DNA of 64,000 nt. Source: Minisyncoccia bacterium. GTDB lineage: Bacteria; Patescibacteriota; Minisyncoccia; Phycocordibacterales; UBA918. The stretch covers positions 142,542-206,541 of the forward strand of contig CAXRCZ010000004.1 in assembly GCA_964229335.1 (NCBI GenBank). The letters are read 5' to 3'. The notes beneath the pieces were generated by a model. It searched no databases, was not told the origin of the DNA, and worked only from the letters and a program-made list of their open reading frames with translations. Of the stretch, positions 50,769-53,250 are shown piece after piece; position 1 is the stretch's first letter; every line of letters begins with the position of its first letter. The translations under genes and the position numbers were made by a program.

Positions 50769-51729
50769 ATTCAGTCAGTACTGTATTAGTTAGTTCAATT
50801 AATGTTAATACGTCAGTAAAACGACCAGTCCTTGTGGAACCTAATACAGTTATAACAATCGGTCTATTAAAGCCGGCATCGTAGGCGATGGTGAGATTGC
50901 CTCCTGCTAAATCGGTGTACCCAGTTTTGGAAGCCAGTAAGTTAGGGATAGCGTAAATCACTTCATTTGTATTTTCTACGTCGTGATATCCACCCTCTTG
51001 GTTGTAGAGACGGGCTTGGTACCTTTGGGTTGACTCTACTAGTTCTGGCGATTGGTTTACAATGTGTGCCAGCAATAGACTAACATCTTTCGCTGAACCC
51101 ACCGCTCCTGGCTCTGACGGAGATATGTCTAGCCCAGTTGGGTTTTTAAAATTTAGCGTGCTGAGTTCAAGTTCTTCGGCTAAGAGGTTCATTGCCACTA
51201 CAAATTGGCCAGCAGCGTTGTTGTCTCCTAGTTTAGCTCCTACAGCATCAGCAAGAGCAAAAGCCGCGTCGTTTGAAGAGGATATCAGTGATAGCTCATT
51301 TAAGGTCTCAATAGTAAAAATTTCACCTTCACTAAAACCAGACTGTCCGTCCTGTAGCAGTGCGCTTTGAGTTATGATCGCTGACTCCTGTTCGTTGATT
51401 AATTGGTATGTCACCTGCGCCGTCATTAGTTTGGTGATTGATGCTAGAGGCAAAACCTCGTTTTCATTCTTGGCATAAATAACTTTCTTATTTTTTACAT
51501 CATATACATACGCCGCTTTAGCACTCAACGTTACGTCATTCAGAGTATTATTATCAGCTTCAAAGGCGTCAGTGACACTGGCTAAATTGTGGTTGTTTTG
51601 GCCATTCTCTGTTGATGAGGTAATTAAGCTACCGAATATTCCTATTAATATTAGACCCAGCACTAATAACTGGCAGCCAATAACTACGCGTCTTTGATGA
51701 AGTAGATTTGTTGGAGCTTGATCATTCAT
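50761..51729 (-). CDS. D-Ala-D-Ala carboxypeptidase (S11)
   Basis: ASITK (SxxK), SSN (SxN), KTG; N-terminal TM. Confidence 0.9.
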   Translation of the reverse strand: MNDQAPTNLLHQRRVVIGCQLLVLGLILIGIFGSLITSSTENGQNNHNLASVTDAFEADNNTLNDVTLSAKAAYVYDVKNKKVIYAKNENEVLPLASITKLMTAQVTYQLINEQESAIITQSALLQDGQSGFSEGEIFTIETLNELSLISSSNDAAFALADAVGAKLGDNNAAGQFVVAMNLLAEELELSTLNFKNPTGLDISPSEPGAVGSAKDVSLLLAHIVNQSPELVESTQRYQARLYNQEGGYHDVENTNEVIYAIPNLLASKTGYTDLAGGNLTIAYDAGFNRPIVITVLGSTRTGRFTDVLTLIELTNTVLTEYE

Positions 51730-52246
51730 GGTTAGTTGTTTCAAAGGCGTCAATAGCATTCATAAATTCACTAAATTGAGGCAGCGTTTCCCTCCTCTCG
51801 ACACCTAGGTGTTGTAGTAATTCAGGTGTGATAGAGAAAGTATAACTCTTGCCGCTACTCGTTCTTTCAATCAATCCTCGTACTAAGAGATTCCGCAAGA
51901 TGAAAGACGAATTTACGCCCCTTATTCTATCTATTTCAGCCCGTTTGATTGGTCCACGATATAGAATAATAGCTAACGTTTCAGCGCCGGCTTTGCCGAT
52001 ATCGCTTTTTAGCTCGTCTTTGCGCAAAGCTTCAATAAATTCTGCAAGATGTGGTGCAGTTACTAGTTGTATTTCTGTATCAGTTTCTACTACTCGCAAA
52101 GCACTATCCTCAAGACGAGCTCGAAGTCTATCAATCCCTCTTTGCCATTCTTCGTCAGTAACCTCAAAAAGCTTCTTTAACATAGAAATTTTTTGAGGAT
52201 TTGACTTATAAAAAAGTAGCGCCTCTACGAGTACATCCAACGGCAT
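51722..52246 (-). CDS. scpB: SMC-Scp complex subunit ScpB
   Basis: EALLF, AETLAIILY.GPI.RAEID.IRGVNS. Confidence 0.93.
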   Translation of the reverse strand: MPLDVLVEALLFYKSNPQKISMLKKLFEVTDEEWQRGIDRLRARLEDSALRVVETDTEIQLVTAPHLAEFIEALRKDELKSDIGKAGAETLAIILYRGPIKRAEIDRIRGVNSSFILRNLLVRGLIERTSSGKSYTFSITPELLQHLGVERRETLPQFSEFMNAIDAFETTNHE

Positions 52247-52298
52247 ATTGCTATATTAGCACGAAAAACTAAAGCTTTTTTGATTTCTTTATACACAC

Positions 52299-52326
52299 TT
52301 GACTTATTATCATATACTGTTATGAT
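52299..52326 (+). promoter_or_regulatory. Promoter for the intergenic structured RNA
   Basis: TTGACT-16-TATGAT with TG extended -10 motif. Confidence 0.6.
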
Positions 52327-52332
52327 AATGAA

Positions 52333-52511
52333 AGTTTCAGATTGCTTAGGGACTTCCCTGCGCAGATATGCCGACAGAGGGTCGCATTGTGCATAGGTCA
52401 CCTAAGCCCGGAGCCGCTCGCATCACTGAGACTTACGTGATAGTTAGCAGCGGCAGGGCCGGATGGATTGCAGGTATCGTCACCAGTACCCTGCTTTCCA
52501 TCCGGCCTTTT
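52333..52511 (+). ncRNA. Unidentified structured ncRNA (~175 nt, three hairpins)
   Basis: GC-rich island in AT-rich surroundings; stems 52344-52407, 52413-52454 and 52457-52507, then TTTT. Confidence 0.6.
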
Positions 52512-53250
52512 AATAATATTGTGGAGTGTCACTTTTATGCAGTTCAACCAAGATGTCATCAAAACGACTTGATTGCGTGACTATCATATTACCCTGTTTA
52601 AACAATTCTAATATCGCGAGGAAGCCAACAATAACTGACTTCTGTTCTGTCTCCTGAGTTTTAATATCAAAAAAAGATAGTTTAAATTGTTTACGAATTC
52701 TGTTTTCTAGTTTATTCATCATTTCTTCAAGGGAAATGGTGCTGGTGACTTTAGCCGTCTGCTTGGTTGCTGGTTTAGGCAATTCACTGATTACGTCTCG
52801 CAGTGAGGCTGATAGTTCATCAATATCGCAATATGAGTCTGGTAAAAATAAAGGTTCACGCGGCGCTTGGTATTCTGGTGAATACATTGAATTGCTACCA
52901 AAATTTTCTTGTACTGAACTCGCTATGTTTCTAAATAGTTGATAGAGCTGCAAGCGCTTTTCTAAATCATCAATACTAGCTTCTTCCTCAGACGACAAGT
53001 CCAGTGATGGTAGGAGTGATTTAGACTTGATTAGCAGCAAAGTAGCCGCTAGCGTAATAAATTGCGCGGTGTTAGGTAATGAACGTTCCTGCATGGCGCT
53101 TACGCGCTCGAGATACTCATCAGTTACAGCAGCAAGATTTATATTATTGATAAGAAGTTTTCGTTTCTCTACTAGTTCAATTAATAACTCCAACGGCCCT
53201 TCAAAGTGGTCGGTTTTAATTGATAGCTCAGGCAATGTAACTGACTCCAT
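52510..53250 (-). CDS. scpA: Segregation and condensation protein A (kleisin)
   Basis: FEGPLELL..L, AATLLLIKS..LLP, FLAILEL.K. Confidence 0.93.
   Translation of the reverse strand: MESVTLPELSIKTDHFEGPLELLIELVEKRKLLINNINLAAVTDEYLERVSAMQERSLPNTAQFITLAATLLLIKSKSLLPSLDLSSEEEASIDDLEKRLQLYQLFRNIASSVQENFGSNSMYSPEYQAPREPLFLPDSYCDIDELSASLRDVISELPKPATKQTAKVTSTISLEEMMNKLENRIRKQFKLSFFDIKTQETEQKSVIVGFLAILELFKQGNMIVTQSSRFDDILVELHKSDTPQYY

What the first reader, a model, noticed from the sequence alone, without database searches (positions are those of the whole stretch)
52299..52511. Unrecognised ~175-nt three-hairpin ncRNA with its own promoter, on the opposite strand between scpA and scpB
Seen: promoter TTGACT-16-TATGAT, then a GC-rich tract that is almost fully paired. 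Hairpin 1: GCTTAGG/CCTAAGC, GACT/GGTC, TGCGCA/TGTGCA, CGAC/GTCG. Hairpin 2: GCCGCT/AGCGGC, ATCAC/GTGAT. Hairpin 3: 11-bp GGCCGGATGGA/TCCATCCGGCC plus GCAGG/CCTGC, then TTTT meeting the scpA stop. It splits the normally adjacent scpA-scpB, and scpB has its own -10 box. I cannot match it to tRNA, tmRNA, RNase P, SRP, 5S or a classical 6S rod. Inference: a novel small RNA or a highly divergent housekeeping RNA.
Basis: partly seen in the sequence, partly recalled or inferred. Interest (0 to 1): 0.72.

Follow-up and report, generated by a model that had tools for sequence, protein, structure and literature searches.

The report
Orphan hairpin RNA in cassette hotspot
A tiny host-dependent (Patescibacteria) bacterium carries, between two chromosome-segregation genes, a promoter-like signal followed by three hairpins and a T-run that matches no catalogued RNA family; it is likely a small non-coding RNA gene, one of the swappable mini-genes that relatives keep at this site, and it probably acts by its shape as a protein decoy.

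Summary
Observation confirmed: promoter consensus (52299-52326), three hairpins (z -6.3; -3.05 without the terminal hairpin), U-tract at the scpA stop, no Rfam family. It is single-copy in a 0.74-Mb Paceibacteria genome whose tmRNA and RNase P lie elsewhere; no 6S or SRP RNA was found. The scpA-scpB spacer is a cassette site: scpB has its own extended -10 (123 of 146 relatives), and 36 of 53 long spacers carry antisense promoters (0 of 78 short), leading mini-peptide genes or structured RNAs. Eight relatives hold similar 180-230-nt non-coding units; seven share a 10-tip clade with this genome. Two subfamilies stay alignable although neutral sites are near saturation. This RNA has no alignable homolog, so its own covariation and expression are untested. 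6S rod, SRP, T-box, IS110/TIGR guide and antitoxin readings failed; Hfq, ProQ and CsrA were not found. Best reading: accessory structured sRNA acting by shape as a protein decoy (0.4). The scan earlier reported a peptide-coding cassette at this site in another genome (e1-819489).

The parts
52299..52304 (+). -35 hexamer TTGACT of the predicted RNA promoter
   Evidence: same promoter type before all nine similar units
52318..52326 (+). extended -10 (TG-n-TATGAT)
52333..52511 (+). predicted 179-nt non-coding RNA; +1 inferred 6 nt after the -10, at an AG start as in the relatives' units
   Evidence: start and end inferred, not mapped
52333..52343 (+). mostly unpaired 5' leader; the AG(C/T)TTCAG start also leads protein-coding cassettes, so likely part of the promoter module
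52344..52407 (+). hairpin 1, long irregular stem; GTCAC at its 3' base recurs in L006, L009 and L010
   Evidence: z -4.03; GTCAC in 4 of 9 units
52413..52454 (+). hairpin 2 with asymmetric internal loop
   Evidence: z -1.87, weak on its own
52456..52511 (+). hairpin 3 plus U-tract, predicted intrinsic terminator of the GGCCGG...CCGGCCTTT type that is common in this genus
   Evidence: z -7.92; the pattern occurs in 30 of 128 genus genomes, often behind ordinary ORFs
52510..53250 (-). scpA (246 aa), convergent; its stop overlaps the U-tract
52253..52261 (-). scpB extended -10 box, 6 nt before the ATG (predicted leaderless or near-leaderless mRNA), back-to-back with the RNA promoter
   Evidence: (123 of 146 relatives, Shine-Dalgarno in 1)
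51722..52246 (-). scpB (174 aa)

Best explanation
The spacer holds a single-copy promoter-three-hairpin-U-tract unit that is likely transcribed as a stable ~179-nt non-coding RNA, likely descends from the same clade-specific RNA gene that relatives keep at this site, and probably works by its shape, as a decoy or sponge for an RNA-binding protein, rather than by base pairing. Shown: the anatomy, the absence of any Rfam match, the cassette nature of the site, and the clade-restricted similar units. Inferred: (1) the site tolerates inserts because scpB has its own promoter; (2) the unit is transcribed (about 0.85); (3) it is orthologous to the relatives' units, whose sequence has drifted past recognition (about 0.7); (4) with only about 11 free bases and no Hfq, ProQ or CsrA found, it presents three irregular double-stranded stems to a protein such as RNase III, RNA polymerase, or a host or phage RNA-binding protein (about 0.5 given 2). 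The partner is not identified.
For: Fold z -6.28, body z -3.05. Antisense promoters in 36 of 53 long spacers, sense in 2, none in 78 short ones; scpB extended -10 in 123 of 146. All 9 type-A carriers, this genome included, lie in a 13-tip clade of a 129-tip ScpA+ScpB tree (0 of 2000 random sets as tight; support of that node only 0.271); 8 of them lie in a 10-tip clade with support 0.987. Subfamily bodies align at z 15.6-17.2 (L006/L009) and 4.7-9.5 (L010/L013/L014), while fourfold-degenerate sites of scpB in the three pairs measured match at 19/60, 17/54 and 10/55: selection on the RNA, or recent transfer. Six hand-picked pairs in the second subfamily: 24 of 24 cells paired, 2 compensatory changes, 28 of 500 shuffles (weak, both changes in one sequence). 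No shared ORF: Shine-Dalgarno-led ORFs are absent in 4 of 9 units and unrelated in the rest. Hfq, ProQ and CsrA not found in the genome; RNase III present. Pairing tests against peptide-cassette leaders and the scpB start were negative.
Against: This RNA's body has no significant likeness to any relative's unit (z at most 2.9). A covariance model of it found nothing in 149 other family genomes, and its local hits rest on the generic terminator. The bodies of the 8 relatives' units are not unusually stable one by one (z +0.15 to -2.21). The type-A label was set by eye, and loci were chosen by likeness to this genome's ScpB. The sister genome in the tree (L005) carries a peptide cassette instead. 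No protein partner was tested; the decoy step rests on exclusion.
Confidence: 0.4

Rival explanations
1. A cis-acting antisense or insulator unit: head-on transcription and the hairpins damp scpA read-through into scpB and the downstream cell-wall genes, with RNase III cutting the duplex; the RNA's sequence is then incidental.
For: The unit ends at the scpA stop, and 6 of 9 type-A units end within 11 nt of it. There is no U-run after the hairpin on the minus strand, so scpA transcripts could run through. Strong orientation bias. RNase III present.
Against: 78 relatives lack any unit. Unrelated cargo (peptide genes, ~100-aa ORFs) takes the same orientation. Sequence conservation inside subfamilies is not needed for this role. 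No cognate pairing with the scpB start (p 0.60 and 0.92).
Confidence: 0.15
2. A decaying relic: promoter, structured leader or tail and terminator of a mini-peptide cassette that lost its ORF, transcribed but without function.
For: Peptide cassettes with structured tails fill the same site. The same 5' start leads coding cassettes. This body is an orphan.
Against: No likeness to any of the spacers compared (152 spacer-strand comparisons; top hits short and unconvincing). Intact promoter and stems. ORF-less units of like size in 8 of 10 members of one clade despite near-saturated neutral sites.
Confidence: 0.15
3. A highly divergent 6S RNA that binds sigma70 RNA polymerase.
For: Size about 180 nt, strong promoter, and no Rfam 6S hit in 128 of 128 genus genomes, so the slot is empty. 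The model rang in only 5-7 of 14 control genomes, so it misses divergent 6S RNAs.
Against: No closing stem or central bubble: forcing the 5' and 3' ends of the body together costs 5 kcal/mol and yields one lone pair. Patchy distribution; subfamily models hit almost only their own loci.
Confidence: 0.1
4. A base-pairing effector delivered to the host, for example blocking 23S rRNA helix 11 with its free 5' end.
For: The 5' ends of L009 and L006 are exact complements (14 and 11 nt) of E. coli 23S from positions 185 and 186, where the 23S of a genus relative differs by a base.
Against: Found post hoc; the two units are one subfamily. This RNA forms only a 7-bp core (-13.9 against -28.2 kcal/mol). 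The same start leads protein-coding cassettes. The host is unknown and export untested.
Confidence: 0.07
5. Guide or terminal RNA of a non-autonomous mobile element (IS110 bridge RNA, TIGR, or the 179-base self-addressed element noted elsewhere in this genome).
For: Similar length; long spacers arise or vanish repeatedly (21 label changes on the tree, shuffled mean 41.1).
Against: Single copy. No repeats or target duplication beyond one 9-nt 8/9 match. IS110 DEDD domain not found; Transposase_20 in 1 of 10 and Nop over cut-off in 0 of 10 genomes searched. No address matching the scpB flank.
Confidence: 0.05

Closest known systems
Independently transcribed, structure-acting bacterial sRNAs (protein-titrating class: 6S/SsrS, CsrB/RsmZ, Ms1; class recalled, Ms1 seen as a listing)
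   Same: Own sigma70-type promoter, 150-250 nt, highly paired, intrinsic terminator, no shared ORF.
   Different: No 6S rod or bubble, no GGA loops and no CsrA found, clade-restricted, sits in a swappable cassette site, partner unknown.
6S RNA (Rfam RF00013)
   Same: Length and promoter strength; the genus has no recognised 6S.
   Different: Three side-by-side hairpins, no closing stem, no model hit, absent from most relatives' spacers.
T-box leaders (RF00230)
   Same: Promoter, long hairpins, then a terminator; a small CCGAG-N6-CUCG hairpin in one subfamily resembles one in this genome's T-box.
   Different: No downstream gene on that strand and no T-box bulge; the model finds the true T-boxes (E 2e-6 in this genome) but not this unit; alignment z at most 2.5.
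Phage morons and other self-contained accessory cassettes (recalled)
   Same: Promoter-cargo-terminator modules inserted between conserved genes and exchanged between lineages.
   Different: Chromosomal core-gene spacer, RNA or mini-peptide cargo; no match in the phage, plasmid or viral collections searched.
TIGR arrays and IS110 bridge RNA (PMC12045711, passages read)
   Same: TIGR loci occur in Patescibacteria; stem-loop arrays exist; a terminator ends the array.
   Different: No tandem units and no Nop-domain or IS110 partner gene nearby or found in the genome.

Membership tests
6S RNA | Match to RF00013 | tested here: not met
   (0 of 128); the model is insensitive (5-7 of 14 controls ring)
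6S RNA | Rod with closing stem and central bubble | tested here: not met
6S RNA | Binds sigma70 holoenzyme and templates pRNA | not testable with these tools
   needs a pull-down
Bacterial SRP RNA | RF00169 match, with Ffh in the genome | tested here: not met
   (one sub-threshold 60-aa SRP54 hit)
tRNA / tmRNA / RNase P RNA | Model match; no other copy filling the role | tested here: not met
   tmRNA on C6, RNase P on C7
T-box riboswitch | T-box antiterminator motif and a regulated gene downstream | tested here: not met
   downstream lies convergent scpA
Hfq/ProQ-dependent base-pairing sRNA | Chaperone gene present | tested here: not met
   (incomplete genome: not found, not proven absent)
Hfq/ProQ-dependent base-pairing sRNA | Seed pairing with a conserved target | tested here: inconclusive
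   only chance-length matches in the genome; cognate tests negative
CsrB/RsmZ-type sponge | Repeated GGA in loops; CsrA present | tested here: not met
   4 GGA, mostly in stems; CsrA over cut-off in 0 of 21 genomes
Type I toxin-antitoxin antitoxin | Extended complementarity to a peptide mRNA | tested here: not met
   cognate pairs no better than permuted (263, 238 and 377 of 720); no enrichment against 25 leaders; only the first 14-20 nt were tested
IS110 bridge RNA / TIGR array | Associated IS110 or Nop-domain gene; tandem units | tested here: not met
   Pfam may miss Tas proteins
Independent intergenic sRNA gene (broad class) | Own promoter and terminator, no conserved ORF | tested here: met
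   (sequence-level only)
Independent intergenic sRNA gene (broad class) | Detected transcript | not testable with these tools
   no RNA run available for this DNA; see Tried and rejected
Independent intergenic sRNA gene (broad class) | Covariation-supported structure | tested here: inconclusive
   no homolog of this body; weak support in a sister subfamily

The most novel reading that the evidence does not exclude
Patescibacteria keep an arsenal of fast-evolving, chaperone-independent structured RNAs and mini-peptides in swappable expression cassettes and deliver them to their host cell, where the RNAs jam RNA-binding defence proteins or the ribosome (the L006/L009 subfamily is complementary to 23S helix 11 at a site where a genus relative's own 23S differs). 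This RNA would be one such inter-bacterial RNA effector.
Probability: 0.07. Interest if true: 0.85.

Novelty: new variant of a known kind. Interest (0 to 1): 0.45.

Why it matters
Paper searches found no description of small RNAs of this kind in Patescibacteria (listings only). These sub-megabase genomes lack recognisable 6S, SRP, Hfq, ProQ and CsrA, yet one clade appears to keep a strongly promoted structured RNA at a fixed site, beside hypervariable mini-peptide genes. The site gives a compact, testable catalogue of candidate accessory RNAs and peptides for asking how these symbionts regulate themselves or manipulate hosts. For this single RNA the case is circumstantial until expression is shown.

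Tried and rejected
Rfam at gathering and at E<=10: only sub-threshold hairpin matches. BLAST against 60 relatives: one 29-nt hit inside a coding-like stretch, chance. No match in phages, plasmids or IMG/VR. Single-sequence covariance model R2: 0 of 149 other genomes. R1 (second subfamily): only its 4 training loci of 128. R3 (this RNA plus L006/L009): its 3 training loci and two weak hits at E 0.02, one looking like coding sequence, one a longer promoter-led unit. GTDB-wide promoter-plus-motif pattern: 9 matches, 1 being the L009 unit and 8 that look like chance or lead ORFs. Promoter-plus-5'-motif pattern in the family: 11 matches against 5 for the reversed control, so near background. The terminal hairpin as a family marker was rejected because it is a genus-wide terminator style. 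Sequencing runs: no RNA holder listed, which says nothing on expression; the four DNA runs are one study. The PF01423 search for Hfq was uninformative (no bacterial control rang) and was repeated with PF17209. Complementarity to the 23S of a genus relative: at most 10 nt, chance level. Antitoxin pairing, pairing with the scpB start, T-box origin, 6S rod and mobile-element guide were rejected as described above. The 70-aa ORF at 52368-52580 has no Shine-Dalgarno sequence and runs through the terminator into antisense scpA; rejected. The preprint 10.64898/2026.10.21.760802 has 0 occurrences of Patescibacteria, CPR or scpA in its main text; its supplements were not seen and may list such clusters.

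Full report
Observation. The sequence at 52299-52511 is as described. A sigma70-type promoter with extended -10 (10 of 12 matches) precedes a 179-nt stretch that folds into an 11-nt mostly free leader, two irregular hairpins and a long terminal hairpin with four U, at -82.2 kcal/mol (z -6.28, 0 of 200 shuffles). Split up, the terminal hairpin is z -7.92, hairpin 1 z -4.03, hairpin 2 z -1.87 and the body z -3.05. The reverse strand folds almost as well (z -5.55), and the promoter match by itself is at chance level (2 vs 1.9), so strand and start are inferred from the promoter, the U-tract and the relatives. The flanking ORFs are ScpA and ScpB by best NCBIfam hits, both below cut-off.

Organism and housekeeping RNAs. 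The genome has 740,809 bases in 13 contigs. The record that holds the L009 unit of a same-genus genome is titled Candidatus Paceibacterota (L247). tmRNA and RNase P RNA lie on other contigs. No 6S or SRP RNA was found in the genome, no 6S in 128 genus genomes, and no SRP54 above cut-off. Rfam gives nothing for the unit at gathering score or E<=10 beyond generic hairpins. The unit is single-copy.

The site. ScpB was found in 114 of 121 genus genomes. I read the upstream DNA for 90 of the 116 places and for the best 80 of 232 metagenome hits. After removing duplicates, 146 regions had the scpB ATG placed: 123 have an extended -10 box 4-10 nt before it and 1 has a Shine-Dalgarno sequence, so scpB is likely transcribed on its own without a leader. 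Of 131 regions with both genes, 78 spacers are 120 nt or shorter and none of these has a strong promoter; 53 are longer, of which 36 carry promoters pointing away from scpB (46 in all) and 2 carry sense promoters. The cargo is varied: GC-rich mini-peptide genes with structured tails, ~100-aa ORFs and ORF-less structured units, up to three in a row, each with its own promoter and terminator. The long/short label changes 21 times on the tree (shuffled mean 41.1, minimum 32): repeated gain or loss with lineage structure.

The RNA's relatives. Nine units, this one included, share a plan: the same promoter type, an AG start 5-7 nt after the -10, 179-232 nt, two or three hairpins and a long GCC-stem terminator. 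I assigned this label by eye. All nine carriers fall in a 13-tip clade of a 129-tip ScpA+ScpB tree (node support 0.271; 0 of 2000 random sets as tight) and eight in a 10-tip clade with support 0.987 (loci lacking scpA or largely incomplete were left out). Bodies without the terminator group into subfamilies: L006/L009 (z 15.6-17.2) and L010/L013/L014 (z 4.7-9.5), with L007 joining the latter only by a short motif (alignment). Fourfold-degenerate sites of scpB are near saturation in the three pairs measured (19/60, 17/54, 10/55) and between this genome and the eight others measured (7/49 to 21/53). The subfamily RNAs are therefore conserved well above neutral DNA, unless recently transferred, and the failure to align this RNA is what such distances would give. 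Against this: this body matches none of them (z at most 2.9); its covariance model found no homolog in 149 genomes and scored the relatives mainly through the terminator, which is a genus-wide style (30 of 128 genomes); the shared 5' start also leads coding cassettes (3 of 5 loci read); the relatives' bodies are not unusually stable singly (z +0.15 to -2.21); and covariation could be counted only on 6 chosen pairs in a 4-sequence alignment that lacks this RNA (2 compensatory changes, 28 of 500 shuffles).

Mechanism. Coding is unlikely: no ORF is shared. Base pairing is disfavoured: few free bases, Hfq, ProQ and CsrA not found, no cognate pairing with peptide-cassette leaders (263, 238 and 377 of 720 permutations) or with the scpB start (p 0.60 and 0.92). 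A 6S rod cannot be formed. The T-box model finds the real T-boxes of five genomes but not these units. No IS110 or Nop partner accompanies them, and there are no tandem repeats like the TIGR units described in PMC12045711 (passages read). What remains is an abundant, compact, mostly double-stranded RNA in a cell with RNase III, kept in a variable accessory site. I therefore commit to action by shape on a protein, as decoy or sponge (0.4 overall). This step is inference by exclusion. Rivals: cis interference with scpA read-through (0.15), a functionless relic (0.15), divergent 6S (0.1), a host-directed pairing effector (0.07), a mobile-element guide (0.05).

A lead to keep. The 5' ends of L009 and L006 are exact complements of 14 and 11 nt of E. 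coli 23S rRNA starting at positions 185 and 186 (helix 11; helix name recalled), where the 23S of a genus relative differs by one base. This was noticed post hoc, concerns one subfamily, and this RNA forms only a 7-bp core there; I rate it low.

Literature. Seven searches for small or non-coding RNAs, or 6S, in Patescibacteria/CPR and one on leaderless promoters were read as listings only and showed no paper on such units; one search returned 0 papers. One preprint on prokaryotic non-coding space was term-searched in its main text only; its supplements were not seen. The library lacks most subscription journals, so 'undescribed' means not found in these searches or in Rfam 15.

Verdict. A real, likely transcribed, uncatalogued structured RNA cassette, one member of a clade-restricted and fast-diverging set at a cassette hot spot, and probably not a hidden housekeeping RNA. 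Function is inferred, not shown. Interest 0.45.

Noticed in passing
scpA-scpB spacers of many relatives (e.g. L005, L007, L013, L014, L024, L028, L030, L036, L046, L050, L163); also G000:C13 from about 55391 (+): Promoter-led, very GC-rich mini-peptide genes (about 12-50 aa) with strong Shine-Dalgarno sequences and structured tails; recurring motifs such as F(S/D)PG and GAGG, and some with RGP/RGPP or IRADT endings that recall ribosome-arrest peptides (recalled resemblance, untested).
   Followed up: partly
L007, L013, L014, L132 spacers: A second conserved non-coding unit (about 125-165 nt) starting GTCCAGCGACC, with its own extended -10 promoter and a long terminal hairpin whose apical CAC-N-NGTG stem is conserved in three copies; no Rfam hit.
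   Followed up: partly
L144:1758-1885 (-), L165:569-711 (-): A third non-coding unit of 126-142 nt, three clean hairpins with a C-rich loop, alignable between the two (z about 15).
   Followed up: partly
L243:1340-1720 (G020:C25): A promoter-led, terminator-ended ~350-nt multibranched RNA-like unit between genes that look like rnr and rpsP (names recalled from the translations), holding a module like hairpin 2 of L006/L009; no Rfam hit and only short weak BLAST hits in 4 of 127 other genus genomes.
   Followed up: partly
window 52253-52290; perfect in L006, L007, L013, L132: The scpB -10 region is followed by an inverted copy of itself (13-bp stem in several clade members, decayed here); possibly an operator or a hairpin on scpA read-through RNA.
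   Followed up: partly
window 52306-52329: A 9-bp perfect inverted repeat (ATTATCATA/TATGATAAT) spans the RNA promoter's spacer and -10 box; possible regulator site.
   Followed up: no
G000:C7: The contig is a near-perfect palindrome (tRNAs and RNase P duplicated in mirror image), likely an assembly artefact that inflates the contamination figure.
   Followed up: no
G000:C4:45002-45244 (-); L228-L234: Shortened T-box-like leaders below the Rfam cut-off, some with a very small stem I, in five genomes of the genus.
   Followed up: no
L206 (G012 23S rRNA): The 23S of this genus differs from E. coli by a C-to-G change in the conserved helix-11 region.
   Followed up: partly
L076 (G079:C7), L066: Further long ORF-less structured units ending in long terminator hairpins, one away from scpAB.
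   Followed up: no
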